The notes under the pieces were generated by a model, which was not told the DNA's origin, ran no database searches, and was given only the letters and a program-made list of their open reading frames with translations. 24,000 nt of DNA from Clostridium cavendishii DSM 21758 (GTDB taxonomy: Bacteria > Bacillota > Clostridia > Clostridiales > Clostridiaceae), in the NCBI RefSeq assembly GCF_900141845.1, contig NZ_FQZB01000006.1, positions 131,165 through 155,164 on the forward strand, read 5' to 3'. The translations under genes and the position numbers were made by a program. Position 1 is the stretch's first letter. Each line of letters begins with the position of its first letter. Positions 7,156 to 23,479 of the stretch are shown here, piece by piece.

Positions 7156-7539
7156 CTATCTAGTCTTCAAAGCATCAACAACCAAAATATCAGCAGAAAC
7201 CCACTTTTGATCATCTAACTTACCAAAATCAATCCACTTAGCATCATTATGAGCATTCAAGCTTAAAGTTCCACCAGAAATCTCACAAATAAAACAATGC
7301 ATAGTAAGATGAAAATTTGGATAATCATAATCAACAGTAGTTAAAAACTCTAATCCATTAATATCAAGTTCTAGCTCCTCCTTAATCTCACGAACAAGAG
7401 CCTCTTCCCTAGACTCACCACTCTCAACTTTTCCACCTGGAAACTCCCACATATTAACGAAATCCCCATAGCCTCTTCTAGTAATAAATATCTTATCATC
7501 CTTCTTTAAAATAGCTGCAACTACCTCTATAGTCTTCAT
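7156..7539 (-). CDS. Nudix hydrolase, MutT-like nucleoside triphosphate pyrophosphohydrolase (127 aa)
   Basis: Complete Nudix box GX5EX7REUXEEXGU: GGKVESGESREEALVREIKEELEL. Size and the N-terminal beta-strand pattern (IEVVAAILKKDDKIFITRR) are typical of MutT-like enzymes. SD AGAGG lies 7 nt upstream of the ATG. Confidence 0.9.
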   Translation of the reverse strand: MKTIEVVAAILKKDDKIFITRRGYGDFVNMWEFPGGKVESGESREEALVREIKEELELDINGLEFLTTVDYDYPNFHLTMHCFICEISGGTLSLNAHNDAKWIDFGKLDDQKWVSADILVVDALKTR

Positions 7540-8383: not shown

Positions 8384-9025
8384 GCTAACAACCTCCTTAA
8401 ATCTCTTCTTAGCTTTTTCATCTCCAAACTTGTCAAATAAAGCATATAAAAGAGTTAAACATTTAGTCTTCTCTTCTTCATTTTTAATATCCTTAGCTAT
8501 CTCTATACTATCTAATGTAATATCACTTTTACTCTTTTCACTTTCCATAAGTGGAATGAAACTTAATGTCATAATATCTTGTTCGGTTAGCTCTTCTCCA
8601 TTATCTACTTTAGTTTTAATTCTTTCATAATTTTCATCCCCATTTAGCTTACTCATATAAAAGCATTCTAATGTATAATTTATCGAACCACAATTAATAT
8701 TTGTAACTACGTCCTTTATATCTGATGAATACACTACTACGGTTCTTATATTTTTTCTACTCATATAATGAAGAGATGCATCATAATACAAAAATCTTGC
8801 TATATCATCCCTTTTATCAGTAGTTTGAAACTCAAAATGCAAATAATCATCCGTCTCTGTATAAAATAGATAATCCATAGCACTAGTCTTAATATCTATA
8901 TTCTTAATTTCCGTTTGTGCTGGCTTTTTTAGCTTAACATCTAAGTTAAAAAACTCTGATGCACTATCCTTAAAAATCTCCATGGCTTTCTTGAATACAG
9001 CATCTTCAACCTTATTATAATCCAT
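8141..9025 (-). CDS. Rpn/YhgA-family recombination-promoting nuclease / putative transposase (PD-(D/E)xK), 294 aa
   Basis: The N-terminal half has the YhgA/Rpn pattern (…DYLFYTETDDYLHFEFQTTDKRDDIARFLYYDASLHYMSRKNIRTVVVYSS…). The C-terminal G-rich repeat plus helical tail ends in EDLEQYF. I prefer the ATG at 9023-9025 (MDYNKVEDAVF…), which has GGAAGGAG 7 nt upstream. The tracked 315-aa form starts at a TTG (9086-9088) with no comparable SD. Confidence 0.8.
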   Translation of the reverse strand: MDYNKVEDAVFKKAMEIFKDSASEFFNLDVKLKKPAQTEIKNIDIKTSAMDYLFYTETDDYLHFEFQTTDKRDDIARFLYYDASLHYMSRKNIRTVVVYSSDIKDVVTNINCGSINYTLECFYMSKLNGDENYERIKTKVDNGEELTEQDIMTLSFIPLMESEKSKSDITLDSIEIAKDIKNEEEKTKCLTLLYALFDKFGDEKAKKRFKEVVSMTDVGRMIYEEGKEEGISIGEANGETKGKADLLLKQLIRRFKKLPDGYREKILNLKLEQIEVIAGDIFELEKVEDLEQYF

Positions 9026-9227
9026 TTTAAAACTCCTTCCAAGTAGGCTTTTATTAATATATTTGCCAATTTGGGAGGAGTTATGCAAATGTATATTCTG
9101 TTTTGAAAATTAATTTAACTCGTTGTGCTAGTTAAATTATTAACTTCATTCTAACCTATAACTTCAAATCATCTTCTAATATTAACCACCTCATCAGTAT
9201 CTCCAAAATAGATTACCAGTATAATAT

Positions 9228-9266
9228 AAAGACTCCTTCCTACGAAATCCGTAAGAAGGAGTCTTT
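9228..9266 (-). terminator. copy A of the conserved two-tier hairpin; terminator candidate for the ATPase-deaminase operon
   Basis: 12-bp perfect outer stem (9228-9239 aaagactccttc / 9255-9266 gaaggagtcttt). Inner TACG/CGTA stem (9241-9244 / 9250-9253) with loop aaatc. Starts 11 nt after the deaminase stop (9278-9280) and is followed on the minus strand by the U-rich UAUAUUAUAC. Confidence 0.55.
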
Positions 9267-9277
9267 TAAATATATTC

Positions 9278-11938
9278 TTATTTTGAATACTTATTAAGCA
9301 CTTCGCATAAGTATTGATAATATTGAGTGTTAGAAAGCTTATTATCTATAAACGAAGTTTCCATACCTGACTTTCTTAACTTTTCAATCCACTCTAAAGC
9401 CTTTTCTTTACCAAACCCTTTATTAAGCATTCCATAATACATGTATGCATATTCATTACTGATATTTGTGTTAAAAATTAAAGGATTATCTGAATTGATA
9501 TTTATAAGTACATTATTTTCTTCAAAGCCTTCAACATTATTTATATTGTAAGCTTGGCTGTCAAATACAGCATCTAATTCTCCTATACTAGTATTCGAAC
9601 TTGGATTTATTTCAACTACTATTCCTTTAGTTGAAAGTTCATTTACCAATTCTCTTTTTACTTCATTAATTATTTCCTTTTGAATGTTATTTGATTGTAC
9701 ATAAATAGGCTCACTAATCTTATCTAAATAGCATTTACAATTATATGCATGAGTTATTTTTTCTGCATTCCAAATAGAACTTTGATGTTTTTCTATTTTT
9801 ACGCAAAGAACCTCATTATTATTTTCAATCAAGTTTTCAGCTGATTTTTTATAGTTTTCATTTTTTTGAAATTTATTAAATCTTAATTGGTAAGCTTCAT
9901 ATAACATAGGAATATTTATTCCATTCATGTTTTTAAATATATCCTTTGCCAATGAATATATTTCTCTTTCTAAAAACAGATTAACTGCCACATTTTTAGA
10001 AATAGAATTTGTGTATACTCCCCATACCCATAACAAGTTATCAAGATATTCTCCTCTAGGAAGTATTACTACCGTATTTGCATTTACCCACTTATTTGGA
10101 TCAATTCCTAGAGCTATAGCATGCCCTATTCTATCACCAGAATGAAACTTACAAAAGGTTACAACTTCATGTATTCTTCTTAACCCTGATAATATATGTC
10201 TAAACTCTTCACCGGCGTGGAAGGTATAGCATAGACTTTTATATCTTACACTACTTCCATCTTTTCCTTGCTTAATTAGTGAATCAATAGAACTATCTCT
10301 AGCCCTTTTGTATATAGGTGCAAATACCTGTACCGGAGTGTTATTTTCAAGATTTGCAGCATCTATTCCTAATATAAAGTATGAGAGATATGGTGATTCA
10401 TTTCTTAGATTCAATAAATTTTGAATCAAAACATCATAATCTTCTTGAATCTTTTTAAAAGAAATTTCACTTGGGTTACTTTTACCATCAAAAGCAAGCC
10501 AACATTTTTCATCTCCATCTTCATCTTTTCTTTTAATTAAATGAAATACTAATCCGATCCTAGGAAAATCAACATTACTATCTTCATTTGTAGAATATTC
10601 ATCATCTATAACCTTTTTATAAGCTGAAAGTATACTTAGTAAATTTTTTTTAAAATCACTTTCATTTTTAGATATACTAAACCTTAATTCTAATCTTTTT
10701 AAATACTCATTTTGAAATAAAGTTCTAAACAATAGTTCATAATATGCTTCATCGCTTAATCCACTGCTGCCCAAAAATTTAGTTGCTCTATCAAAAAAGT
10801 TTGAGAAATTATCCAATCCTTTTATAGTTGAACTTTGAACCACTTGTTGATAAAATTCATTTTTAATCCTAATATATTTTAATAAAATTTTAAATAAAAA
10901 TGGTTCTTTTGTTTCTTCATATTTTGTAAAAGCCTTCATTAAAAATACATTCTCACCATAAGTATTGATTCCTTTGCATTCAGTAAATATCCTAAACACA
11001 ATATCTTCTTTTTTATCATTATCTTTTATCTGATATTGTTTGTTTAAGTCTTCCAACAATTTAAGCAATTCAATATTAGTAATCTCTTTTTCTTGTCCAC
11101 TCACTACTAATAATATATTTTTAATATTTTTTAACTCACCTTTGCAATACTCCTCTATTGTTATATCTGAGTCATTTTGATATTTCATATAAAACATAAC
11201 TATATTCCTATATATAGCTGCTAATATGAAATATCTGTGAGGATTTTCTTTGAATTCTCCTTCTCCATTTTTAAAGTACTTAACTTTTTTAATATTTTTC
11301 GCTTTTATCCTTTGATTCATAAGCTGTTCCCAAAGCAATATAAAGTTAAACCCAGAATTAGCATGTAAATGATTTTCAGCTACACCTTTCACAAGTAAAT
11401 CATCTAACTGAGAATCTGCCAAGCTTATATCTGAATAATAGCCATCCAATTCTCTAAAATCAACAATGTTATTTTTAATCATATATAATATTGTAAATAA
11501 ATCCATAGAAATTATTGAATTTATATTACGAAACACTTCAATTTTCTTATACTCTTCATAAGGCCCTATAAATTCATCATCCAAATTATTTTTCCAATAC
11601 TTGTACACTATCTTTCCATTTCTGTGAGATATCAAAGTAGTAGTAAATTTTCTTAAATTTTCATAATAGCATTCATAAACTTTGTCTTCATTAATTTCTC
11701 TTTCTCTTAAAAATGGATAATACTTATTAAGAATTAAATAAACCTCATCCAAGTTTTTTATTTCAGATGTTTCACTTATTTTATAAACTAATTCTTCCAA
11801 TAAAAAACTTTTATTTTTCTTCTCACTAGGATCAGCTATTTTTAAAAATGTATCTTCTTCAAAAAAGAACAAATCTTTAAATGGTATCAATGCAACATTT
11901 AAAATTTCTCTAATTTTAGTATTCATTTGCATCTGCAT
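9278..11938 (-). CDS. rdrB: divergent adenosine-deaminase-fold protein (886 aa), RdrB-like (RADAR deaminase)
   Basis: All adenosine-deaminase signature motifs occur in the canonical order. NH190LH192 (nt 11363-11371). G524IDAAN. H574AGE577 (nt 10208-10219). DRIGH606 (nt 10121-10123). E776INPSSN782. S816D817NP (D817 at nt 9488-9490). The protein is far larger than a housekeeping ADA and sits directly behind a ~940-aa ATPase gene, overlapping it. Three in-frame ATGs (11938, 11932, 11926); GAGGA spacing favours 11932. Confidence 0.8.
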   Translation of the reverse strand: MQMQMNTKIREILNVALIPFKDLFFFEEDTFLKIADPSEKKNKSFLLEELVYKISETSEIKNLDEVYLILNKYYPFLREREINEDKVYECYYENLRKFTTTLISHRNGKIVYKYWKNNLDDEFIGPYEEYKKIEVFRNINSIISMDLFTILYMIKNNIVDFRELDGYYSDISLADSQLDDLLVKGVAENHLHANSGFNFILLWEQLMNQRIKAKNIKKVKYFKNGEGEFKENPHRYFILAAIYRNIVMFYMKYQNDSDITIEEYCKGELKNIKNILLVVSGQEKEITNIELLKLLEDLNKQYQIKDNDKKEDIVFRIFTECKGINTYGENVFLMKAFTKYEETKEPFLFKILLKYIRIKNEFYQQVVQSSTIKGLDNFSNFFDRATKFLGSSGLSDEAYYELLFRTLFQNEYLKRLELRFSISKNESDFKKNLLSILSAYKKVIDDEYSTNEDSNVDFPRIGLVFHLIKRKDEDGDEKCWLAFDGKSNPSEISFKKIQEDYDVLIQNLLNLRNESPYLSYFILGIDAANLENNTPVQVFAPIYKRARDSSIDSLIKQGKDGSSVRYKSLCYTFHAGEEFRHILSGLRRIHEVVTFCKFHSGDRIGHAIALGIDPNKWVNANTVVILPRGEYLDNLLWVWGVYTNSISKNVAVNLFLEREIYSLAKDIFKNMNGINIPMLYEAYQLRFNKFQKNENYKKSAENLIENNNEVLCVKIEKHQSSIWNAEKITHAYNCKCYLDKISEPIYVQSNNIQKEIINEVKRELVNELSTKGIVVEINPSSNTSIGELDAVFDSQAYNINNVEGFEENNVLININSDNPLIFNTNISNEYAYMYYGMLNKGFGKEKALEWIEKLRKSGMETSFIDNKLSNTQYYQYLCEVLNKYSK

Positions 11939-14735
11939 TGTCCTCTTCTTCAGGTAATTCTAAATCAAATTCTTTATAGAATAATTCTTCCTCAGCTTTT
12001 GCTTTCTTAAATGCTTCCTCTAAAGCTTTTTTCATTGAATTCTTTTTTTGCTCTAAATTTATAATCATTTCTGTTTCAGCTGAATTAACATTTCTATATT
12101 TAATATACTCTTGGATAATAAAATTAAATACAGGTTCTTCTATATCTAAATAAGCTTCTTTCTGTAATGTTTCAAGTAAATTTCTCGCTTCAATAACACC
12201 ATACCAAGCTGTACTCTTATAACCAAGATAACGAAGTTTTTCAACAATTTTTATGTAATCACCAATTGAAACTTTCTCTTTTTCACTTCCATCTTCAACT
12301 ATTATACTTTTAATAAATTCATGTGTTTTTCTATATACTGTTTTAGAATTATATTCAACATTATAAAATTTTCTAAATTCTTCTTTGAAATTTTCATCAT
12401 TTATATCTATAATATTAATCATCCCAACAACTACATCTATTTTTTTGTGAACTTCATCTCTTAACAGTTCATCAATCTTTGTTTTATTATTTTTTACATT
12501 TTGATTATTATCTAATTTCTTTAAAATTTTTATTATAGATTTAGATTCATTATCTAAGTTCTTCAAGTCTTGATCATTATTAACCACTATAATATTGTTT
12601 TTATACTTTTCCTTATTTATATAATTATAAAATAATTGTTTTTTATAGTTTTCATAAACTTTATATGCTTTATTATTTTTTTCATCTTTTTTTTCTGGGT
12701 TTTGCAATAATTGAATCTGATTTTCTGTATATTCTATATTCATCTCATAATCTTTACCTTTTAAAAAACTATATTGATTCAATATTTTTTCAATCTTTTC
12801 ATTCTCAATAGGCTCTCTTGATACTGAATCTAGAAATTCTATTATATGTTTATACTTTTCTCTATCTAAATACCAATTTTTAATCATGTCTCCATTATCA
12901 TAATCTAAAATTAAATTACATAAAATCAAATAAATTTGACGTTTTTCTTTAACACTTAAATCTTTAACTTTTTCATCATCTATTTTAATAATATTTTTTA
13001 GCTTTTCCATGAAAAATAAGGCAAACTTAAAATCAGTATTAAAAATTATCTGATCAATCCAATCATTAATTATTGGATTTTTATCTTTCATAAAATCTTT
13101 AAATTTTTCATTATTAAAGTTTACTTTATCAACATCTACATTTAAAATATTTTCACCTATATTAAATTTATATAAATAGAAAAAATATTTTTTAGCCTCT
13201 TCATATCCTACAACATTTGCTTTTGGCAATAACTCTTTAGTTGTTTGTAATAATATAAAGAAAGTTATATATCTATTTATATACTTTCTCTTTTCTTCTT
13301 TATTATTATCTTCTTTATCATCTTTCTTTCCTTTATCTTTATCAGAATTTAATTCATTTTTAAAACTGTTACTTAGCTTCTTTGTAAAAAGTCTTTTAAA
13401 ATCTATTATTGTATTTTCCTCATTTGATCCCCATTTGATATGCTTTTCATAAATCTTACTTTGATCTTTTATTAAGTCACTTGAAGAATATATAATTGTA
13501 TCTATTAACGATTTAATAAATACAAATCTTTTTTCATCATCTACAAATTCCTCTTTATCATATTTACTTAAATAATAAAATACATTTATTAAACCTCTTG
13601 GTGTTTTATCAAAAATTACATATGGTATTTCCGAGAAAATCTCGTCACTTTTTTTATTTTTCCTCTTAAATATATTGTCTTCACCCATCAAATCATCTAG
13701 TTTTTTATGCAAATATATCGTTTCATTTCCACTTTTATCAACTTGAAATGAAAAATTAGGTATACTCTTAAAATTCCATTTTATAACATTATGCCTAAAT
13801 GCAGGTGGTAACACCTTTTTTAAATATTCATGTGCTAAATATTTTTTTCTACTAATTAAATTATGTTTACTATCAAATAATTCATTATTTTCTACAAGGC
13901 TTGTTGTTGCTAACTTTTCATTTTCTAATAATGCTAAAGTTATAGATTCACTTAATATTTCATAATCTCCAGATAAAAAACATATTATATTAGGATGGCA
14001 AGTATAAGCCATTACTGCATCTATCAATTCTCTACATTTATTTGTTTTTAAATCGATATCATCTATTGTTATAATAATTAATGGCTCTTCACCTTTATTT
14101 AAGTTTCTTTTTACACTAATTAATTCTTCTACGAAAGAATGTAATTTATTGTTAAATTCATAATCAGGTGCTAAAATATAAGAATATTTCTCCTTATAAG
14201 TTTCCATATCACTATAATTTTTCATTATTAAATTACGATATTCAGCATCTTTATAACAATAATATTCTAGAACTTCATTATAACTTCTACTTAACTCATT
14301 ACTTTCTTTAAACCTACATTGATTAAAAAAATCTGAGAACTCTTTATTATCAATTTCATTTTTTTCTATTTCATTTTCTAGAGCTTGCATTTCTTTTTTC
14401 AAAACACCTAATATTGCTCCTAGTATCTTTGTACTATCTCCATATATATCTGGTTCTATTATTGGAAGAACGATATCTTTATTTCCTTCAGCTTCTAAAC
14501 TATTTAAAATAGTATACATAGTTGAAGTTTTTCCTGTTCCCCTTTCGCCAAATAATCCAATAGTATTATTGTATTGCTTCTTACTACTATTATCTCTTTT
14601 TCTATTTATTAACTTTGCTTGTCCTCTTATTTCTTCAATTTGATTGATTATATTATCATATGTAGGAACTATTAATTTAACTTGTACATCACTTAAAGCT
14701 CTGGCGCCTATAAAAACTCCATTTTTATTTTTCAT
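11916..14735 (-). CDS. rdrA: large P-loop NTPase (939 aa), RdrA-like (RADAR ATPase)
   Basis: Walker A GLFGERGTGK69TS (nt 14523-14549) and Walker B PLIIITIDD225-226ID (nt 14052-14063), both in the first 230 aa. About 700 further residues are K/N/E/I-rich with no recognisable motif. Size, position immediately upstream of the deaminase and the 23-nt overlap match RdrA. The family call rests on architecture, not on sequence identity I can verify. Confidence 0.7.
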   Translation of the reverse strand: MKNKNGVFIGARALSDVQVKLIVPTYDNIINQIEEIRGQAKLINRKRDNSSKKQYNNTIGLFGERGTGKTSTMYTILNSLEAEGNKDIVLPIIEPDIYGDSTKILGAILGVLKKEMQALENEIEKNEIDNKEFSDFFNQCRFKESNELSRSYNEVLEYYCYKDAEYRNLIMKNYSDMETYKEKYSYILAPDYEFNNKLHSFVEELISVKRNLNKGEEPLIIITIDDIDLKTNKCRELIDAVMAYTCHPNIICFLSGDYEILSESITLALLENEKLATTSLVENNELFDSKHNLISRKKYLAHEYLKKVLPPAFRHNVIKWNFKSIPNFSFQVDKSGNETIYLHKKLDDLMGEDNIFKRKNKKSDEIFSEIPYVIFDKTPRGLINVFYYLSKYDKEEFVDDEKRFVFIKSLIDTIIYSSSDLIKDQSKIYEKHIKWGSNEENTIIDFKRLFTKKLSNSFKNELNSDKDKGKKDDKEDNNKEEKRKYINRYITFFILLQTTKELLPKANVVGYEEAKKYFFYLYKFNIGENILNVDVDKVNFNNEKFKDFMKDKNPIINDWIDQIIFNTDFKFALFFMEKLKNIIKIDDEKVKDLSVKEKRQIYLILCNLILDYDNGDMIKNWYLDREKYKHIIEFLDSVSREPIENEKIEKILNQYSFLKGKDYEMNIEYTENQIQLLQNPEKKDEKNNKAYKVYENYKKQLFYNYINKEKYKNNIIVVNNDQDLKNLDNESKSIIKILKKLDNNQNVKNNKTKIDELLRDEVHKKIDVVVGMINIIDINDENFKEEFRKFYNVEYNSKTVYRKTHEFIKSIIVEDGSEKEKVSIGDYIKIVEKLRYLGYKSTAWYGVIEARNLLETLQKEAYLDIEEPVFNFIIQEYIKYRNVNSAETEMIINLEQKKNSMKKALEEAFKKAKAEEELFYKEFDLELPEEEDNADANEY

Positions 14736-14776
14736 TTTTTCTTTCCTTCCAATTTTTAAAATTTGTTATCTTATAA

Positions 14777-15262
14777 TTATTTAGTTTTTTCATTTTTTTG
14801 TTCTATATGTTTATTCCAATTATCAACGTCAGCTTTAGAAATATTTTTTATTATCTGAAGCACTTCATCATCATAATTCTTTTTCTCACTAGATTCGCTA
14901 CATTTAATTAATATTTCCATCAATCCATCACCAATATTTTCAACTGCTTGTCTATATCTTAGCCAAGATAATTTATAATTTTTTAAATATGATACTGAAA
15001 TTAAAATATTTATTAATACTGCTATAGCTGAGTTTATAATCTTTGTATTATCATTAAAAACATTCACTAATGGTATTATTGCGGTAAGAATTATTATACT
15101 AATATTAAATAAATTATACCTAGCTCTCCCCCCGTCAGCTTTATTTATATACCATTCCAACTTATAAAATGCTATATCGGATGTCATTTTTGTAATATAT
15201 TCTTTATTAGTTAAATCATCTAATATATTCTTATAAAAATTCAGCTCTGATGATTGCTTCAT
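14777..15262 (-). CDS. small 2-TM membrane protein (161 aa), SLATT/DUF4231-like; RADAR accessory (RdrC/RdrD-type) candidate
   Basis: Two adjacent hydrophobic helices (YNLFNISIIILTAIIPLVNVF and IINSAIAVLINILISVSYL, nt about 14981-15118) are followed by SWLRYRQAVENI, the W-x-RYR-x-x-E pattern I associate with SLATT/DUF4231. AAGGAG lies 9 nt upstream of the ATG. First gene of the operon, 41 nt before the ATPase start. Confidence 0.6.
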   Translation of the reverse strand: MKQSSELNFYKNILDDLTNKEYITKMTSDIAFYKLEWYINKADGGRARYNLFNISIIILTAIIPLVNVFNDNTKIINSAIAVLINILISVSYLKNYKLSWLRYRQAVENIGDGLMEILIKCSESSEKKNYDDEVLQIIKNISKADVDNWNKHIEQKNEKTK

Positions 15263-15794
15263 TATTTTTATCTCCTTTTTTATCTAGTAATAATTTATAA
15301 ATATAATATAAAAACTTCTTTTATTTACTTATTATTACACTATTATTTTATCACATATTTTCTCTTTTTCTACAATTTTAGATATTCATATACAACATTA
15401 TTACTTTATAGGCTCTTATGAATTCTTAAAATATAATAGAATAATTATATCTACTGGATCTGTAAAGCACTTAATCTAAAAAACATATTAATCTATTTTG
15501 AATATCTTTATATCTCAACATATTTTATTAATATTTTTAGAGTATTTTTCAATAAATTTAGATAAGCTTTTAAAATATAAAATTTTATAAAAACAATATT
15601 GTCCTGTTATATGAATTTCTGTCATATAATCATATAGATGATTCTGTTATTGGTGAAATTCTAATAATCTTTATAGTATACACTGCTGTCTAATTATTAG
15701 TAAATTTTACAATATGATTGTAATGATATATACTTTTATTATAATCAAACTTATAATTTTATTAATACTATAATTGTTGAAAGGAGTATTACTC
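15263..15794. promoter_or_regulatory. 0.5-kb divergent intergenic/promoter region between the SLATT-ATPase-deaminase operon (-) and the 333-aa orphan gene (+)
   Basis: No ORF of note on either strand. One plus-strand candidate is TTGTAA (15718-15723), a 16-nt spacer, then TATAAT (15740-15745), about 50 nt before the TTG start at 15795. Several other TATAAT strings occur here, so individual promoter calls are weak. I could not pick a convincing minus-strand promoter for the operon. Confidence 0.35.
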
Positions 15795-16796
15795 TTGAAA
15801 AATCAAATACAAACACTACCAATAATTAAGTTAAGAAATATATCATATCCAGAAAGGTCATTAACTTTATTTATATCAGTATTTTCAAATTTTCACTTAA
15901 GTGAAATCTTTTCTCTAAGAGATACATATCCAAATACTAATATAAATATTTTCATAAATGAAAATAAACTTATGTTTTTATATAAAAATTCTATTGAATT
16001 TTTTTCATCTCTTAATACTCAAAAGATTAATATTATTTTCTCTAATAGCGTTAAATCGGACATGCTTTTTATTGATGAAAGAATTAGTATTCCTTTAGTA
16101 TATATTAATAAAACAATACATCTAAATACGGGTAAAGTTATAGAAACAACTTTATCGGATATCTCTACATCAAGCTGTAATACATTAAAAGGACTTTTTA
16201 CACACTCTGATAACTCATATATAAGTATTGTAAATAATTTAACAGTATTAGAAATTAACTCTATTATAGATTACATAAATTATTCTGATATTCAGTTAAC
16301 CTCTAATGATATTCTTCAATTTAGTAATTTTGACAATTCAACTATTAATCTTATTTCTGTTTTATCAAACATTGAGGAACCTTTAAATTATAATGATGTA
16401 GGTTTACTTCTTACCGAAGGTGATAAAAAACCAGGTGCCTATAAAAAATATGGTGAGAATCAATCTAAAACTGGAGAACTTCTTGAGCTAGTTTCTATTA
16501 ATTCATCTGTTCCCAAAACTGTGTCTTTAACTCCATTAGGAGAAGCTCTTCTTAATGTTAATAAAGAAGTTTTTGATAATATTATTTTCTTTGAAATTTT
16601 GAAATGTAACCTTCTTAAACACTTAATTTCATTATGTAAGTTTAATTGCCAAGTTAATGTTAAAGAAATATGTGTACCTACTATTTCAGAGAAAACTTAT
16701 TTACGTAGAAGATCTAATATCAAATATCTTGTTAATCTTTTAAAAGCTAAAAATATTGAATCTTTAAACATTCTTTTAGATAAATTATCTTTTTAA
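15795..16796 (+). CDS. hypothetical protein (333 aa from the preferred TTG; 340 aa in the track), possible C-terminal winged-helix region
   Basis: The only plus-strand gene. AAAGGAG (15780-15786) sits inside the tracked 5' end, 8 nt upstream of an in-frame TTG at 15795-15797, so I move the start there. The segment KKPGAYKKYGENQSKTGELLELVSINSSVPKTVSLTPLGEALL looks like a helix-turn-helix plus wing; this is a weak, pattern-only call. No catalytic motif seen. Confidence 0.55.
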   Translation: MKNQIQTLPIIKLRNISYPERSLTLFISVFSNFHLSEIFSLRDTYPNTNINIFINENKLMFLYKNSIEFFSSLNTQKINIIFSNSVKSDMLFIDERISIPLVYINKTIHLNTGKVIETTLSDISTSSCNTLKGLFTHSDNSYISIVNNLTVLEINSIIDYINYSDIQLTSNDILQFSNFDNSTINLISVLSNIEEPLNYNDVGLLLTEGDKKPGAYKKYGENQSKTGELLELVSINSSVPKTVSLTPLGEALLNVNKEVFDNIIFFEILKCNLLKHLISLCKFNCQVNVKEICVPTISEKTYLRRRSNIKYLVNLLKAKNIESLNILLDKLSF

Positions 16797-16799
16797 GTT

Positions 16800-16836
16800 A
16801 AAAAAATGAGCAACGTAAATGTTGCTCATTTTTTTA
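16800..16836. terminator. bidirectional rho-independent terminator between convergent genes
   Basis: Perfect 9-bp GC-containing stem (16806-14 atgagcaac / 16821-29 gttgctcat) with loop gtaaat. Flanked by A6-7 (16800-16805) and T6 (16830-16835), which extend the stem and give a U-tract in both directions. Lies between the stops at 16794-96 (+) and 16834-36 (-). Confidence 0.75.
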
Positions 16837-19800
16837 TTTATTCTTTTGCATTTCCATCCAAAAAGCATTATCTTGCATATAGATAACATCTTCAACATTT
16901 CCTAGCTTTACTAAACTCTTATGTTGTTCTAATGACTTTATCTTAGTAAACAGCTCATCTTCCTGTGTCTTATTCGTTGTATTATATATAAACTTTATGT
17001 CTTTTATTGAAAGGTCTGATACCTTGTGTACTATCCAAGTTAGGATATAGTTTGCATACTCATTATCTCCTGTAGAAAAATGGCTTAGTAGCTGTGTTGA
17101 TAGTATTGTTCCTACTCCAAACATTCTACCTTCTTTTAAGATCTTCTTTAAACTTTGGAAATTTTCACACAAGAAGTTATCAGCCTCATCAACTAATATC
17201 ATCTTACTCAACTGTCTATACTTGTCATCAAGTTTACTTTCTCCTAATACTTTCATTTGTGAATAGAAGATATCTAGTATTATACCTACAACTAAGTTTT
17301 GAATATCCGAATCACTGTTTGAAAGGTTTATTACTGTAACTCCATCAATCATATCATATAATGATTTAGAGTTATCCACATCTGGATCAAATATTTCAAA
17401 ATCATATAACTTATCTAAACATGTAAATAGTTTATCTTGCTTTACATCTTCATCATCAAAAAACTCTCTGCATACTTCTGCTATAGTTGGTGGTTTTTTA
17501 GTCCATGTATTTGGATCATTCTTTTTAATTCCACGTTTATCATATGCATTCATTATAAGTTCTTTTAATTTGTTCTCTTGGACTACACCTAAACCAAAAG
17601 CTGTAGTCATTGTATGTTTCAAAGCATTAGCAGTGTATAATGGTAATAAGTTTTTCTCCTTATTTCCCTGAACTAATTCTAGTGGATTAAATGGAAGATG
17701 ATATGTCTCATATACCTTAGCATTTGTAGCCTCAACAAATTCATTATCTATATAATCACCTTTATAATCAAATATTAACAATCCAATCTTTTTACCATCA
17801 ATATTTTGATAAGTATTTTTATTTAATTGATATATAAGAGATTTAGTAAACTGAGTTTTACCAGTTCCCATAGTTCCAATTATACCTGTATTAGTATGAT
17901 TATTTTGTATTGAATCAGTTGGATTCCAAATCACCTCACAATCTCTATGAATATCTCTTCCAAAAAGAACTGATAATGGCCCTTTAGTTTCTGCAACTGC
18001 CCCAGTATCTTCACCACTATTTCCATCATATATCGCACTTGATTCTTCATCATTTGAATTATCATTAATAGACGTTTCTTCTTTCATTTCACAAACTCTA
18101 CCTTCATATAGGTTATATAATAATGTATCACTCTTTATATCGCTCTTATCTAATATAAAATTGTTCTTTATTTCTTCAACACTTCTTAAAATATTTCTAT
18201 ATCCTGATGCTTCTGGGAATACTAATTCTAAAATCTTATTTCCCTTATCATATTCTTCCTGATTAAAAGCATCTCCTAATTCATCAACACCAATTGAAAC
18301 AAGTTCACCATTCTTTTCAAATGATATATCACTTTTAAAAGTAAATATAGCACCTCTTCCAATTATCTCATCTAAACTATTAGATATTCTATAATCATCA
18401 TTTAATAACTTTGCTCTTACATCAGTTTCTATAATAGAATCCCAATTTTGTTCATCCCACACATTATAAAGCTTTAATTTCTCGATGCTTACAAGAACTA
18501 ATTTAATTAGAAAATCTCTAAATATCTTTGCTTGTAATTTATCATTGATTTCTTTGCTTATATTCCTTTCTATATGATTTCTTGTTTTGTAAGCTTGTAG
18601 CTTCGCCTTTTTAGTTACATCCCCTTTAATTTGCCCAATCTTAACTTCAATTGGATAATAGTGAACATCTATATTACCATCAGCACAACATTCTATTCCT
18701 ACTAATAACAAGTCATCTGAATAAGCACCATCACCACTTAAATTTTTTACTGAGAACAAACCTTCTTTACTACTTAAACCACAACCTTTGGATACTCTTA
18801 GAATTTCCTCTAATGAAATTGGGACCCATACAATTTTTTTATTGTAAAAATATGACAAACTTAACTTTATAGTAGATACGATACTAAGCTTCTCTCTATC
18901 TTCATATCCATTACAAGAAATAATTTTTAATAACCAATCTCCATTTATCGCATTAAAACAGTTTATTACTTTAGTTATTGACTCTTCATCATTTCCTAAT
19001 AATACATTTTTATTTTCTAAGAAACTCTTTATTACTTCCTTATATTGCTTAGTCTTTTTAGTTACTGTAATAGAATCATATCCAGAAGATGGTGTATATT
19101 GATCACTATAATGTATAATAAGTAAATCTTTTTCTTCAATAGTATCTTTAAAAAATTGTAATCCAACCATTGGATTTATGAATGTTACCCAATTTGCAGA
19201 TTCATAAATACGATTTAATTGATCTTCTTTATATTCATCTATAGCGGTAGTTTTGCACCTACTATCATCAAATGGTGATTCATTTTCAGCAGAACAAATT
19301 AATGCATTCATTTTAGTAGCCATTTTTAGAAGTGTATTTTTAGAATGAATAAATTTAGTTCCATACCCTGTTCTATATGATTTAGATATTTCTTTAGAAG
19401 GAACTGATGATAATAATCCACCAAGTGATACACCCGTGTTTATATTATCCATTATCGTATTTTTATTAGAGAACTCATGCTCCATTTCGTAGAATGTTAT
19501 ATGACTATATTCATACTTAGTAGTATCATAATTTTTTATATAACAGCTAAGCTTTGAATTTACGATATCAAAAATATCATCCTTAGAATACTTCTTATTG
19601 CTAGATTTTATTGCAAATGATAAACCTAGCTTTTCCTCTGCATCCTCAACATGCACATAATTTTGAAGTTCCTCAAATACACTATCACCAGACTTATTGT
19701 ATATATTAATAATAAGTGGTCTTAACTTCTCAATTCCCTTACTCTTTAATCCTTCAGTATAATAGTCTATTATACCTTGTAAAATATCTTTAGAGTATCC

Positions 19801-22107
19801 TGTATTAATTAAATTAATCTTTAATGGCAGTTCTGTAGATAAAAATAAAGTCTTAAAGTGTTTTATAAATTCATTTATTTTTTCTCTAACTAACTTCTTA
19901 ACAAATCCTCTGTTTCTTTCATTAAAATCAATATCATTTATTACATATTGCTTCCACTCTTTAGAATGATTTTGTTCTAAAGATCTATAAAGCTTTTCTC
20001 CACCAAAAGATATATAAGGAATGAGGTTTGTTGAATCTAATTTATTAGCAATTTCTTTTTCTAAATCTTCCTCATCAGAAATCACTTTATCCTTTAACTC
20101 TTCTGTGATCATAAGTTGATATGACACATTAATAGGGTGTAATGGTGTTAGTAAGATCTGTCTAGCTGAACCCATTACTTCTATTGTCCCAACTCTTAGT
20201 AAATCAACAATTTCATCACACATATTGTCATTGTACTCAATCTTTTCCAATTTGGAATAGTATATATCAATATACGTTTTTAATCTTTCTTCTAAATCTT
20301 CATCAATATAAGCTAAGCTTGGTAAAACAACATTTGATTTATAGTATTCAAAAATTCTGTTATAAGCTTCTTTTAACTTATCACAAACTTTTAACTCTCT
20401 AATCTTTAGTTTTCCATTTGATTCTACGAAGGCCATTCCTCCATTTTTCAAGATAAATTCTTCTCTATCAAGATTAACTTTAAATTCATCATAAGCAAAA
20501 TTAACTTCACCATCTTTACTAATTTTGTTATCTAAAAATTTATAGCTCCCCTTATCTCTTAATTTATTTATCCAAATTTGTCTTCCACTAATACGTGTAA
20601 TCTTAGAATTGCTTCCAACAATATTAAAAGGAATTATTAGATTATCTAGCCTAAGATTAAATCTATATGCATCTTCATTTTCATCTATTTTTATCTTATT
20701 TTTCACCTTAAACTTATTAATAGCGTTAATAGGTACATTCTCATCTTGGAAATTCAAAGTTATTGATGATGTATCTTCACCATATGGATTTAACGTAAAC
20801 TCTGAATCCGATGTCATGAGCGTAATGTTTTGCTCTTTTTTAGTTATCTTTATAGTGTAATTAGTTCTTACAACTGTATCCTCAAATATAGCTTTATCCA
20901 TTGGAATAACGACGATCTTAAACTCATAATTACTCTTTCCTGAATAAGATACCTTACAAAAACTAACTTCGTCTTCCAATTCTTCTAATATAACATTAAT
21001 CTTCCTATTATTTATCTTAGCTGAAACATTCTGCCCAAAATCACATTTAACACCTTTACCTTTCATAGCTTCTAACTTATTATCAAAAACAAAAGATAAT
21101 TTGATAGTATCAACTTTATCTTTATTAAAAATAATTATGTTTCTCTTTCTTCTTTGTGCCTTAGTTGTACCTTCTTCCTTCTCCCAATAATCTTCCTTAG
21201 AGATATTTTCTATAGAACTACATTCATAGATGATATCCTTTTCCTCATAATTATCCATAGACTGCCTAACAACTTTATATTCTTCATTAAACCAGGCTTT
21301 ATTAGCTAATTTCTTTTTTCCTGTTTCATCTAAAAACTTTTCTAAATTACTCTCTATATCTCCACCATACTTATGGATATTGTCTATCTTTAAGTACGCT
21401 TGCGAGTTCTCATTTAACCTACTAATAGCTTCCTTCTCATCATTAATTGTATCTAGCTTAAGATCTCTAAATAATTCAAATTCTTTAAATTCAGAATCAT
21501 CTATATAGCCCTTATTTATTATAGATACTATATCGCTATACTGTAATATTGATTGACCTTCATCAGAATCTTCTCGCTCCCTTCTTCTTAGGTCAAACTT
21601 TAATACATATTTTGCACTTAATGCAAGATTACTTTTATCTATAAGATAATTTATATCATTTATTAATGTCTTAGAATGGAATGGCATACCTTCCTTTTGA
21701 AAGTTTATAACTCCATCTGTGATAGTATCTTTATTACTTGTATGAATGAATAATATTGCTGAATTCTTAAATTGCGACTTCATGTTGGTACTAACTTCAT
21801 TTCTTAATGTAGCTAAGAAATCTGGATTAACACCATCAATTGTAGCTGCAACAATTAATATAATATCATTAAACTTAATTGAATATGTTGTATATTCCTC
21901 ATACTTCTCATTAACTTGATATTTAAATAGTTTACTGTCAGAGACGTTTTTTATTTCTTCATATAAGTGCTTTACATCTGACTCTTTTTCAAATTGAATT
22001 TCATATCTATCACCATAATAAATTCTTGTCCCATCAAAATATTCAACAACCTTTTTAGCTAAAAAATTATAAAATTGATCTAACATATAATGCATCCCCA
22101 CTATCAC
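16834..22107 (-). CDS. 1757-aa multidomain protein: central PD-(D/E)xK-like nuclease motif plus C-terminal FtsK/HerA-type P-loop ATPase; DptH (DndH)-like by architecture
   Basis: Walker A GIIGTMGTGKTQ (nt 17851-17886) and Walker B MILVDEADNF (nt 17173-17202) lie in the last ~380 aa. Nuclease-like motif is SDDLLLVGIE…DGNIDVHYYPIEVKIG (nt 18640-18717). It is the last, largest gene of a coupled three-gene operon. The tracked start is GTG (22105-07); the ATG at 22084-86 has GGGGA 8 nt upstream and may be the real start. The CDS is near-certain; the DptH assignment is only moderately supported. Confidence 0.55.
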   Translation of the reverse strand: MIVGMHYMLDQFYNFLAKKVVEYFDGTRIYYGDRYEIQFEKESDVKHLYEEIKNVSDSKLFKYQVNEKYEEYTTYSIKFNDIILIVAATIDGVNPDFLATLRNEVSTNMKSQFKNSAILFIHTSNKDTITDGVINFQKEGMPFHSKTLINDINYLIDKSNLALSAKYVLKFDLRRREREDSDEGQSILQYSDIVSIINKGYIDDSEFKEFELFRDLKLDTINDEKEAISRLNENSQAYLKIDNIHKYGGDIESNLEKFLDETGKKKLANKAWFNEEYKVVRQSMDNYEEKDIIYECSSIENISKEDYWEKEEGTTKAQRRKRNIIIFNKDKVDTIKLSFVFDNKLEAMKGKGVKCDFGQNVSAKINNRKINVILEELEDEVSFCKVSYSGKSNYEFKIVVIPMDKAIFEDTVVRTNYTIKITKKEQNITLMTSDSEFTLNPYGEDTSSITLNFQDENVPINAINKFKVKNKIKIDENEDAYRFNLRLDNLIIPFNIVGSNSKITRISGRQIWINKLRDKGSYKFLDNKISKDGEVNFAYDEFKVNLDREEFILKNGGMAFVESNGKLKIRELKVCDKLKEAYNRIFEYYKSNVVLPSLAYIDEDLEERLKTYIDIYYSKLEKIEYNDNMCDEIVDLLRVGTIEVMGSARQILLTPLHPINVSYQLMITEELKDKVISDEEDLEKEIANKLDSTNLIPYISFGGEKLYRSLEQNHSKEWKQYVINDIDFNERNRGFVKKLVREKINEFIKHFKTLFLSTELPLKINLINTGYSKDILQGIIDYYTEGLKSKGIEKLRPLIINIYNKSGDSVFEELQNYVHVEDAEEKLGLSFAIKSSNKKYSKDDIFDIVNSKLSCYIKNYDTTKYEYSHITFYEMEHEFSNKNTIMDNINTGVSLGGLLSSVPSKEISKSYRTGYGTKFIHSKNTLLKMATKMNALICSAENESPFDDSRCKTTAIDEYKEDQLNRIYESANWVTFINPMVGLQFFKDTIEEKDLLIIHYSDQYTPSSGYDSITVTKKTKQYKEVIKSFLENKNVLLGNDEESITKVINCFNAINGDWLLKIISCNGYEDREKLSIVSTIKLSLSYFYNKKIVWVPISLEEILRVSKGCGLSSKEGLFSVKNLSGDGAYSDDLLLVGIECCADGNIDVHYYPIEVKIGQIKGDVTKKAKLQAYKTRNHIERNISKEINDKLQAKIFRDFLIKLVLVSIEKLKLYNVWDEQNWDSIIETDVRAKLLNDDYRISNSLDEIIGRGAIFTFKSDISFEKNGELVSIGVDELGDAFNQEEYDKGNKILELVFPEASGYRNILRSVEEIKNNFILDKSDIKSDTLLYNLYEGRVCEMKEETSINDNSNDEESSAIYDGNSGEDTGAVAETKGPLSVLFGRDIHRDCEVIWNPTDSIQNNHTNTGIIGTMGTGKTQFTKSLIYQLNKNTYQNIDGKKIGLLIFDYKGDYIDNEFVEATNAKVYETYHLPFNPLELVQGNKEKNLLPLYTANALKHTMTTAFGLGVVQENKLKELIMNAYDKRGIKKNDPNTWTKKPPTIAEVCREFFDDEDVKQDKLFTCLDKLYDFEIFDPDVDNSKSLYDMIDGVTVINLSNSDSDIQNLVVGIILDIFYSQMKVLGESKLDDKYRQLSKMILVDEADNFLCENFQSLKKILKEGRMFGVGTILSTQLLSHFSTGDNEYANYILTWIVHKVSDLSIKDIKFIYNTTNKTQEDELFTKIKSLEQHKSLVKLGNVEDVIYMQDNAFWMEMQKNK

Positions 22108-23479
22108 TTTTCTTTTCTAATACATTTAATCTTTGATAAAAATCAATTAATCTATTTCTTGAATCCTTATCTAGATAAACCCCTCTTCTTTCAAGTTCTT
22201 TTATAATGTATTGTAATCTAACCTTTTGCTCATCTTTTATACATAGTTTAGTTAATAGTATTACATATTCTTCTGTTAAGTTTAATGTCATCCCATTTCT
22301 TCCCCTATTTCTTAAGAAGTTATTTCTACAAAACTCAAAGAACCAATCGTAATAACGACGACTTAACTCTATGGCATTTGTAACCTTCGAATGATGATTA
22401 TGTATTAAGCCATATAATTTTTCAACTTCAACTAAAATATCATCCTCAGTATCAGAGTCAAATTCATACTCTGTCCAATATTCATTTTCATCTTTTATAG
22501 CAGCTTCGTACATAGCTACTACTTCAGATAAATTCTGCCATGTCTCTAGTTTCTCATCATCATTCATTTTGCTAACTAATTCTTTAAATTCCTTGTAAGT
22601 ATAGTTATTATGACCAGCTTCTGAACAGTTTAAAATATTTAGACATATTTCATGAGATCTTAAACTATTTATAGCATTTTCTACTAAGCACCATCCATTT
22701 TCATATCCTATACGCCCTTTAGAAACCTTTTCCCAATCAAACGTAAAGTATATTAGCGGTACTTCCTTTTCATCAAACATATTATTTAAATTACCAACTG
22801 CCCTTAATATATAAACTACATAATAGAACTTTAAAAGAGTTACTATTTGAGAACAAAAATTCCTCTTTCCTTTTAAAAGATATTTCAAATCCTCATTAAA
22901 AACAGACGTAATTTCTTCTGCGAAATTCTTATATTGTTTCTTTTTCTTTTCACTATTTATAGCTACCTCTGGTAGCTTATCTAAAATTAAATCAGTTAAA
23001 ACATTTCCTGTTTTGTTTTCAAACACTTCTTCAATACATTTTCCATAGTTCTCTTTTTCATCAAATAAAACATCATATAGAAAATTCCCCATTTCTATGT
23101 TTTCTTCCTCTGTCATTGAATAAACTAAAACTTTAGGATGAAACTTTGCAATGCCCTTATCTTCATCAAAGAAAATTGTTGAAACTACTTCTTTAAACTT
23201 TTCTTTATCATTTTCAGTCTCAAACTCTACTGAATTTATAATATCTGAAAAGAATACCTCTTTATTAAACTCAGTTACATTACAATTTAATAAGTTACAA
23301 CAAAAAGCTCCAATACACTCATCAAACCTTTTTATGATATCCTTATGCTCCTTTAATGGTCTAACATTATATGGAACTATTAATTTATCTTTAGTTTTAG
23401 GCTTATGCGTTGGTTTCTTAGTCGGATCCTTCATACTATAATCCTTCTTTACTTTGCTTATATCAATCTTATATCCCAT
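22067..23479 (-). CDS. 470-aa protein of unknown biochemistry; DptG (DndG)-like by size and operon position
   Basis: Its ATG (23477-79) shares one nt with the upstream gene's TAA (TAATG) and has GAGGTG 8 nt upstream. Its 3' end overlaps the 1757-aa gene by 20-41 nt. No catalytic motif recognised. The family call is positional only. Confidence 0.4.
   Translation of the reverse strand: MGYKIDISKVKKDYSMKDPTKKPTHKPKTKDKLIVPYNVRPLKEHKDIIKRFDECIGAFCCNLLNCNVTEFNKEVFFSDIINSVEFETENDKEKFKEVVSTIFFDEDKGIAKFHPKVLVYSMTEEENIEMGNFLYDVLFDEKENYGKCIEEVFENKTGNVLTDLILDKLPEVAINSEKKKKQYKNFAEEITSVFNEDLKYLLKGKRNFCSQIVTLLKFYYVVYILRAVGNLNNMFDEKEVPLIYFTFDWEKVSKGRIGYENGWCLVENAINSLRSHEICLNILNCSEAGHNNYTYKEFKELVSKMNDDEKLETWQNLSEVVAMYEAAIKDENEYWTEYEFDSDTEDDILVEVEKLYGLIHNHHSKVTNAIELSRRYYDWFFEFCRNNFLRNRGRNGMTLNLTEEYVILLTKLCIKDEQKVRLQYIIKELERRGVYLDKDSRNRLIDFYQRLNVLEKKSDSGDALYVRSIL

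What the first reader, a model, noticed from the sequence alone, without database searches (positions are those of the whole stretch)
9278..11938. The deaminase keeps every catalytic motif of adenosine deaminase but has roughly doubled inter-motif spacing and a ~190-aa N-terminal extension
Read directly from the translation: H190/H192 (HxH), G524-I-D, H574-A-G-E577, R-I-G-H606, E776-x-N-P-S-S-N and S-D817-N-P. In mouse ADA the equivalent residues are H15/H17, H214/E217, H238 and D295/D296. So HxH-to-HAGE is about 200 aa in ADA against 384 here. HAGE-to-(T/S)D(D/N)P is about 80 aa against 243 here. HAGE-to-RIGH is conserved (24 vs 32 aa). The catalytic barrel therefore looks intact, with large insertions between strands and an extra N-terminal domain. 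Such additions would fit oligomerisation or ATPase-docking surfaces. The second Asp of the DD pair is Asn (D817-N818).
Basis: partly seen in the sequence, partly recalled or inferred. Interest (0 to 1): 0.6.

Follow-up and report, generated by a model that had tools for sequence, protein, structure and literature searches.

The report
Known RADAR deaminase RdrB, already catalogued
The oversized adenosine deaminase is RdrB, the ATP-deaminating enzyme of the RADAR anti-phage system; its N-terminal extension and stretched spacing are the three insertions already described by cryo-EM, and this exact locus is in a published RADAR catalogue.

Summary
The gene lies on the minus strand. Every listed motif is at the stated residue, and the spacings (384, 32 and 243 aa) are correct.

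The interpretation also holds, but it is not new. The protein is a divergent Bacillota-clade RdrB, the ATP/dATP deaminase of RADAR.
- Sequence: NCBIfam RdrB E 2e-59, and E. coli RdrB structures 8fnw/8hr7 at E 1.5e-18 (4.7e-45 with a family profile).
- Fold: an AlphaFold model (pLDDT 87) matches E. coli RdrB over the whole chain (TM 0.70). Small adenosine deaminases match only about a quarter of it.
- Published basis: Duncan-Lowey et al. 2023 describe the N-terminal extension, the core-splitting insertion and the insertion after the last catalytic His. These build the RdrB dodecamer.
- Spacing: it matches E. coli and Aliivibrio RdrB.
- Partner: the upstream 939-aa gene is a divergent RdrA. An RdrA-like gene lies upstream on the same strand in about 75 of 80 related loci.
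- Accessory: a SLATT (RdrD-like) gene heads the operon.
- Catalogue: Table S1 of that paper lists Clostridium cavendishii DSM 21758, 140442-145899, RdrA 939 aa, RdrB 884 aa. These are this window's coordinates.

Asn818 is a rare variant in RdrB relatives but common in ordinary clostridial adenosine deaminases, so it does not suggest inactivity. Interest is low.

The parts
9278..11938 (-). rdrB: 886-aa RADAR adenosine-deaminase-fold enzyme (P0001). Alternative in-frame ATG starts at 11932 and 11926; the published catalogue gives 884 aa.
11384..11938 (-). Residues 1-185: N-terminal extension, equivalent to RdrB 'insertion 1'. Mostly helical with a conserved beta-hairpin (R106, G108, K113, W115 invariant in the family).
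   Evidence: AlphaFold secondary structure; invariant columns; published insertion scheme
11363..11371 (-). H190-x-H192 at the end of barrel strand 1 (E186-192): the first two zinc ligands, in the context A-E-N-H-x-H shared with Aliivibrio RdrB (A-D-N-H-I-H).
10703..11362 (-). [quoted passage not shown]
   Evidence: boundaries inferred from secondary structure
10121..10702 (-). Residues 413-606: barrel strands 2-6, with G524-I-D, H574-A-G-E577 (zinc His and catalytic Glu) and R-I-G-H606 (last zinc His).
   Evidence: Direct alignment to E. coli RdrB H498, E501, H530; hhalign to the genome's own adenosine deaminase
9689..10120 (-). Residues 607-750: block after the last catalytic His, equivalent to RdrB 'insertion 3' (3-fold interface in E. 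coli). It includes a low-confidence loop at about 686-716.
9281..9688 (-). Residues 751-886: barrel strands 7-8 and C-terminal helices, with E776-x-N-P-S-S-N and S-D817-N818-P. This is the only stretch Pfam A_deaminase detects.
11916..14735 (-). rdrA: 939-aa divergent AAA+ ATPase (Walker A G63-T70, Walker B D225-D226). Its stop overlaps the rdrB start by 11-23 nt.
14777..15262 (-). SLATT/DUF4231 two-transmembrane-helix protein (161 aa), RdrD-like accessory, 41 nt upstream of rdrA.
   Evidence: RdrD described in PMC11482910

Best explanation
The gene encodes RdrB, the effector of a RADAR anti-phage operon (SLATT/RdrD-like, RdrA, RdrB) in a defence island next to DndFGH-type genes.

RdrB is an adenosine-deaminase-fold zinc enzyme. 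Its (beta/alpha)8 barrel carries three large additions: an N-terminal extension, a helical block between strands 1 and 2, and a block after the last catalytic His. By homology with E. coli RdrB, these additions build a hollow homo-oligomeric shell, and the RdrA AAA+ ring docks over each active site. On phage infection the complex would deaminate ATP to ITP and dATP to dITP, which floods the cell with inosine nucleotides and stops phage replication.

Shown here: homology, fold, motif conservation, the conserved RdrA-RdrB gene pairing, and identity of the locus with a published catalogue entry. Inferred from the E. coli and C. rodentium work: substrate, oligomeric state, docking and the defence phenotype.
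For: - All motifs at the stated residues and invariant in 47 homologues.
- NCBIfam RdrB E 2.3e-59, aligned over residues 186-861 against profile positions 149-845 of 850. PADLOC RdrB E 4e-36.
- PDB E. coli RdrB 8fnw/8hr7 at E 1.5e-18, with H574/E577/H606 aligned to H498/E501/H530. A family profile gives E 4.7e-45.
- hhalign to the PGAP-annotated Aliivibrio RdrB: probability 99.9.
- AlphaFold model pLDDT 86.9, pTM 0.89. The top eight Foldseek hits are all RdrB chains, with target TM 0.67-0.71 over about 890-920 columns. Ordinary adenosine deaminases reach a query TM of only 0.25-0.28.
- Spacing matches known RdrBs. Window: 189/384/32/243. E. coli: 151/346/32/250. Aliivibrio: 163/355/32/277.
- The upstream gene is RdrA-like: NCBIfam RdrA E 4e-12; best PDB profile hits are RdrA; hhalign probability 96.5. 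The top 20 Foldseek hits are all RdrA chains, followed by a 10^4-fold gap in E-value.
- An RdrA-like gene lies upstream of the deaminase on the same strand in about 75 of 80 genome loci, directly abutting it in most.
- Table S1 of PMC9994260 lists C. cavendishii DSM 21758 at 140442-145899, minus strand, RdrA 939 aa, RdrB 884 aa. That equals window 9278-14735, given the window's contig offset of 131165.
Against: - The score is far below NCBIfam's RdrB equivalog cut-off (202 against 800 bits).
- PADLOC's RdrA models do not hit the partner, and no PADLOC model hits the SLATT gene.
- The first ~350 residues show no pairwise sequence similarity to E. coli or Aliivibrio RdrB. They match only by profile and by fold.
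- The E595-E597 triplet needed for the E. coli 3-fold interface aligns to M-N-G here, so the assembly could differ.
- No activity, oligomer or defence data exist for this protein or its clade.
Confidence: 0.93

Rival explanations
1. The protein is RdrB-like but catalytically impaired, because the second Asp of the (S/T)DDP motif is Asn818. It would act as a scaffold or binding protein only.
For: Asn at this position is rare in the family: 5 of 47 homologues and 2 of 76 genome-encoded relatives, against 73 with Asp-Asp. In mouse adenosine deaminase the equivalent Asp296 contacts the purine N7 (my own knowledge, not tested here).
Against: Every metal ligand and the catalytic Glu are intact. The Asn variant recurs in scattered family members (P0012, P0070, P0075, P0090, L009), so it is tolerated. 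Four of five canonical adenosine deaminases sampled from the same bacterial class, including both copies in this genome, naturally have Asp-Asn here. The ORF is intact and coupled to an intact RdrA.
Confidence: 0.04
2. RADAR here works by editing RNA (adenosine to inosine in transcripts), as first proposed for the system, rather than by deaminating free ATP and dATP.
For: This was the original interpretation of RADAR, as recounted in PMC9994260. RdrA structures in an 'RNA-loading state' exist in the PDB (8hra and 8hrb).
Against: The fold is that of mononucleotide and nucleoside deaminases, not of the ADAR/cytidine-deaminase superfamily. [quoted passage not shown]
Confidence: 0.05
3. It is a housekeeping purine-salvage deaminase (adenosine, adenine or AMP) with accessory domains, or a Cad1-type CRISPR-associated deaminase, and is unrelated to RADAR.
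For: Pfam sees only A_deaminase. There is a weak PADLOC CARF_ADA hit on residues 761-867. AMP deaminase and Cad1 appear among the lower Foldseek hits.
Against: The genome already has two canonical ~335-aa adenosine deaminases elsewhere. No CARF domain was detected. Cad1 and AMP deaminase match only the barrel (query TM 0.23-0.29). The gene is paired with RdrA in about 75 of 80 relatives and sits in a defence island.
Confidence: 0.02

Closest known systems
RdrB of the E. coli P0304799.3 RADAR system (PDB 8fnv, 8fnw, 8hr7; Duncan-Lowey et al. 2023, PMC9994260)
   Same: Adenosine-deaminase barrel with the His tetrad and catalytic Glu. Three insertions in the same places. Identical 32-residue HAGE-to-RIGH spacing, and similar overall spacing (346/32/250 against 384/32/243). 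An upstream, overlapping RdrA gene. Whole-chain fold match (target TM 0.70).
   Different: Only 15-16% identity in the structural alignment. The protein is 87 residues longer, about 38 of them in the N-terminal extension and about 38 in insertion 2. The E595-E597 interface triplet is not conserved (M-N-G). The motif is Asp-Asn instead of Asp-Asp. A SLATT gene is present upstream.
PGAP-annotated RdrA/RdrB of Aliivibrio salmonicida plasmid pVSAL840 (NC_011311.1; locus L091)
   Same: hhalign probability 99.9 for RdrB over residues 354-861 and 96.5 for RdrA over 47-318. Same A-(D/E)-N-H-x-H context and the same 32-residue spacing.
   Different: The Aliivibrio protein passes the NCBIfam equivalog threshold and the window protein does not. 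No sequence similarity is detectable in the N-terminal ~350 residues.
RADAR with RdrD ('RADAR2': RdrA, RdrB and the RdrD auxiliary membrane protein; PMC11482910)
   Same: A three-gene layout with a small membrane protein alongside RdrA and RdrB. The window's first gene is a two-transmembrane-helix SLATT protein.
   Different: No PADLOC model detects the window's SLATT protein. Among 80 related genome loci only one other (L067) has a SLATT gene upstream. Table S1 of PMC9994260 carries no SLATT remark for this locus.
Canonical adenosine deaminase (Pfam PF00962; e.g. Plasmodium vivax ADA 2pgf, and this genome's own P0182)
   Same: The same catalytic residues and barrel. Target TM 0.59-0.71. hhalign matches the strand-4 to strand-6 block. 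Asp-Asn at the strand-8 motif is shared with clostridial enzymes.
   Different: About 335-370 aa with none of the three insertions. Monomeric or dimeric. Acts on nucleosides. Not paired with an ATPase.

Membership tests
RADAR RdrB (as defined in Duncan-Lowey et al. 2023) | Adenosine-deaminase active site: four zinc-ligand His plus the catalytic Glu (E. coli H152, H154, H498, H530, E501) | tested here: met
   H190, H192, H574, H606 and E577 are present and invariant in 47 homologues. H574/E577/H606 align directly to H498/E501/H530. The HxH context is shared with Aliivibrio RdrB.
RADAR RdrB (as defined in Duncan-Lowey et al. 2023) | Three insertions: an N-terminal extension, an insertion dividing the core, and an insertion after the last catalytic His | tested here: met
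   Secondary structure of the model. Full-length Foldseek match to 8fnv/8hr7. Spacing compared with E. coli and Aliivibrio RdrB and with a canonical adenosine deaminase.
RADAR RdrB (as defined in Duncan-Lowey et al. 2023) | Encoded directly downstream of an RdrA AAA+ ATPase | tested here: met
   P0002 matches NCBIfam RdrA at E 4e-12. Its best PDB profile hits are RdrA. hhalign probability 96.5. The Foldseek top 20 are all RdrA chains. An RdrA-like gene lies upstream on the same strand in about 75 of 80 loci.
RADAR RdrB (as defined in Duncan-Lowey et al. 2023) | Listed in the published RADAR catalogue | tested here: met
   Table S1 row for Clostridium cavendishii DSM 21758: 140442-145899, minus strand, 939 and 884 aa. 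This equals window 9278-14735 at contig offset 131165.
RADAR RdrB (as defined in Duncan-Lowey et al. 2023) | Dodecameric shell held by the insertion-3 Glu/Arg 3-fold interface (E595-E597 essential in E. coli) | tested here: inconclusive
   The E595-E597 triplet aligns to M-N-G in the window protein, and the family consensus has no acidic triplet there. The oligomeric state itself cannot be tested with these tools.
RADAR RdrB (as defined in Duncan-Lowey et al. 2023) | Deaminates ATP to ITP and dATP to dITP; protects against phage | not testable with these tools
   Needs enzyme assays and phage challenge.
NCBIfam NF041744 RdrB equivalog (the narrow naming model) | Whole-protein score of at least 800 bits | tested here: not met
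   201.8 bits. The protein belongs to a divergent Bacillota clade outside this naming model. That explains the 'hypothetical protein' or 'amidohydrolase' names given to its relatives.
Canonical housekeeping adenosine deaminase (PF00962/TIGR01430) | Single ~330-aa domain covered end to end by the model | tested here: not met
   Pfam and TIGR01430 match only residues 762-869. The TIGR01430 score of 42 bits is far below its 216-bit cut-off.
Cad1 (CARF-adenosine deaminase, type III CRISPR) | N-terminal CARF sensor domain and a CRISPR context | tested here: not met
   No CARF domain in Pfam or NCBIfam. The PADLOC CARF_ADA hit covers only the deaminase C-terminus. Foldseek target TM is 0.34-0.39 for full-length Cad1 chains.

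The most novel reading that the evidence does not exclude
The Bacillota clade of RdrB (about 900 aa) lacks the E595-E597 triplet of the E. coli 3-fold interface. It also carries its own invariant N-terminal hairpin motif (R106, G108, K113, W115, K132). This clade may assemble through a different interface, or into a different oligomer, than the E. coli dodecamer. The conserved basic hairpin might contribute to triphosphate binding or RdrA docking rather than serving only as scaffold.
Probability: 0.2. Interest if true: 0.35.

Novelty: already known. Interest (0 to 1): 0.1.

Why it matters
It matters little as a discovery.

The practical points are three:
- Current automated models under-call this clade. 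It falls below the NCBIfam RdrB cut-off, PADLOC's RdrA models miss the partner, and no PADLOC model hits the SLATT gene. Relatives are deposited as 'hypothetical protein'.
- The clade is large. There are 206 loci among the 185,579 species genomes scanned and 2,908 clusters at 50% identity in the representative library.
- No member of the clade appears to have been characterised. I base this on the PDB search (no closer structure than E. coli RdrB) and on the paper read; I did not make a systematic literature search.

Tried and rejected
1. NUDIX association. A MutT-like gene lies near the RdrA-RdrB pair in the window and in the first three relatives inspected, which suggested an ITP/dITP-cleaning partner. 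Across 80 genome loci only 5 have a NUDIX gene within 10 kb. That is about what chance gives, so I rejected the idea.
2. SLATT as a core component. It is found upstream only in the window and in L067 among 80 loci, so it is an occasional accessory.
3. hhalign of the family profile against the genome's own adenosine deaminase. It aligned only the strand-4 to strand-6 block. Full motif-by-motif equivalence therefore had to come from the RdrB alignments, Pfam and the fold match.
4. BLASTP of the N-terminal 420 residues against the Aliivibrio RdrB N-terminus found nothing significant.
5. The promoter and terminator scan of 9000-15800 was uninformative in this AT-rich DNA (69 promoter-like sites found against 57 expected).
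6. PADLOC at E up to 10 gave no RdrA hit for the ATPase and no hit at all for the SLATT protein.
7. The literature search for RdrD and SLATT returned mostly unrelated 'radar' papers.
8. Model coordinates are not exposed by the tools, so I could not measure distances between the catalytic residues.
Full report
**Observation.** The ORF at 9278-11938 is open only on the minus strand and encodes 886 aa; the finding did not state the strand. A canonical 338-aa adenosine deaminase from the same genome (P0182) has 185, 24 and 81, with 15 residues before its HxH. So the 'doubled spacing plus ~190-aa extension' is real.

The motifs are not chance. Pfam A_deaminase passes its gathering threshold (E 2.5e-10). 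All listed residues except N818 are invariant in an alignment of 47 homologues sharing 32-54% identity.

**What it is.** The protein matches RdrB models:
- NCBIfam NF041744 at E 2.3e-59, aligned over residues 186-861 against profile positions 149-845 of 850.
- PADLOC RdrB at E 4e-36.
- The E. coli RdrB cryo-EM chains 8fnw/8hr7 at E 1.5e-18, or 4.7e-45 with a family profile.

In the alignment, H574, E577 and H606 fall on E. coli H498, E501 and H530. Duncan-Lowey et al. 2023 name these residues as zinc ligands and catalytic Glu (PMC9994260).

An AlphaFold2 model built on the 47-sequence alignment is confident (pLDDT 86.9, pTM 0.89). Its top eight Foldseek hits in the PDB are all RdrB chains, aligned over about 890-920 columns with target TM 0.67-0.71. 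Ordinary adenosine deaminases follow, with target TM 0.59-0.71 but query TM only 0.25-0.28, so they cover only the barrel.

The catalytic residues sit at the C-terminal ends of predicted strands, as expected for an amidohydrolase barrel: E186-192, E570-574, E603-605, E774-777 and E811-814. I infer it from these alignments.

[quoted passage not shown] Insertions 1 and 2 form the 2-fold interface and insertion 3 the 3-fold interface of a hollow dodecamer. RdrA docks over the active site.

| Protein | Before HxH | HxH to HAGE | HAGE to RIGH-His | HAGE to Asp | Source |
|---|---|---|---|---|---|
| Window RdrB | 189 | 384 | 32 | 243 | |
| E. coli RdrB | 151 | 346 | 32 | 250 | residue numbers |
| Aliivibrio RdrB (PGAP-annotated) | 163 | 355 | 32 | 277 | |
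| Median of 76 genome-encoded relatives | 194 (position of the first His) | 400 | 32 | 240 | |

In the window protein the extra length lies in residues 1-185, 193-412 and about 607-750.

**System context.** The 939-aa gene directly upstream (11916-14735, minus strand) overlaps the rdrB start. It is a divergent RdrA:
- NCBIfam RdrA at E 4e-12.
- A family profile finds E. coli RdrA as the best PDB hit, through the Walker A and D-D-I-D Walker B regions.
- hhalign to Aliivibrio RdrA gives probability 96.5.
- The top 20 Foldseek hits of its model (pLDDT 77) are all RdrA chains from E. coli and S. suis. The next hit is 10^4-fold weaker in E-value.

In 80 related genome loci, an RdrA-like gene lies upstream of the deaminase on the same strand in about 75, and directly abuts it in most. 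The loci without one are mostly cut by a contig end.

The first gene of the operon (14777-15262) is a two-transmembrane-helix SLATT/DUF4231 protein. This corresponds to the RdrD auxiliary membrane protein described for some RADAR systems (PMC11482910). It is rare in this clade: only one other locus of 80 has it. DndG and DndH homologues lie immediately upstream, so the operon sits in a defence island.

**Already catalogued.** Table S1 of PMC9994260 has a row for Clostridium cavendishii DSM 21758, scaffold00004.4, 140442-145899, minus strand, RdrA 939 aa, RdrB 884 aa. The window is contig positions 131165-155164 of its genome. Window 9278-14735 therefore equals 140442-145899 exactly, and the protein lengths agree. 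Several relatives I found are in the same table: Clostridium sp. ASF356, Paenibacillus uliginis, P. gorillae, and Lachnospiraceae bacterium A4 and 3-1. For strain 3-1, the table's fragmentation comment matches what I saw in L079.

**Asn818.** Most relatives have Asp-Asp. Asp-Asn occurs in 5 of 47 aligned homologues and in 2 of 76 genome-encoded relatives, with one Asp-Glu. It is scattered across the family. Four of five canonical adenosine deaminases sampled from the same bacterial class, including both copies in this genome, have Asp-Asn at this position. The substitution is therefore a tolerated natural variant of the fold and gives no sign of inactivation.

**Differences from E. coli RdrB.**
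- Identity is only 15-16% in the structural alignment.
- The first ~350 residues have no pairwise sequence similarity to proteobacterial RdrBs.
- The E595-E597 triplet, whose mutation abolishes E. coli defence, aligns to M-N-G here.
- The clade falls below the NCBIfam equivalog cut-off. PADLOC's RdrA models miss the partner, and no PADLOC model hits the SLATT protein.
- The clade is large: 206 loci among 185,579 species genomes, mostly Clostridia, Lachnospiraceae and Paenibacillus, and 2,908 clusters at 50% identity with E at most 0.001.

**Mechanism.** Taken from the E. coli and C. rodentium work and inferred here: RdrB oligomerises through its insertions, RdrA rings dock over the active sites, and infection triggers ATP-to-ITP and dATP-to-dITP conversion that blocks phage replication. 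The SLATT protein may add membrane permeabilisation.

**Verdict.** The feature is already known, and this locus is already listed as RADAR. Interest is low. What remains open is whether this uncharacterised Bacillota clade uses the same assembly interfaces.

Noticed in passing
L001 4123-16742 (same region as L008 7114-19903), Oceanirhabdus sp. W0125-5: Two RdrA-RdrB pairs lie in tandem on one strand (947+916 aa and 1123+927 aa), separated by one small gene on the opposite strand. L085 also carries a second RdrB-like gene about 6 kb downstream of the first.
   Followed up: no
window 7156-7539 (-): A MutT-like NUDIX gene lies 1.7 kb downstream of rdrB, and NUDIX genes were also near the first three relatives inspected. 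Across 80 genome loci only 5 have one within 10 kb, so there is no real association.
   Followed up: yes
L005 (G000 contig 42, 14933-15910, minus strand): The genome's second canonical adenosine deaminase copy has an in-frame TAA inside the Pfam match, so it may be a pseudogene or split gene.
   Followed up: no
L004, L005, L088, L089, L090: Canonical ~335-aa adenosine deaminases of this bacterial class mostly carry Asp-Asn (4 of 5) instead of the textbook Asp-Asp at the strand-8 motif.
   Followed up: partly
window 14777-15262 (-): Table S1 of PMC9994260 flags 'Has a SLATT domain' for some RADAR loci but not for this one, although a SLATT gene sits 41 nt upstream of rdrA.
   Followed up: partly
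window 9278-11938 (-), residues 103-132: The N-terminal extension contains a beta-hairpin with family-invariant R106, G108, K113, W115 and K132. This is unusually strong conservation for a region thought to be only an assembly scaffold.
   Followed up: no
L008-L087, RdrA-like ORFs: The partner ATPases vary widely in length (about 875 to 1342 aa), while the deaminases stay mostly within 864-954 aa (three outliers of 989-1092 aa).
   Followed up: no
window 16834-23479 (-): Full-length DndH (1757 aa, E = 0) and DndG homologues lie directly upstream of the RADAR operon. No modification genes were seen in the window.
   Followed up: no
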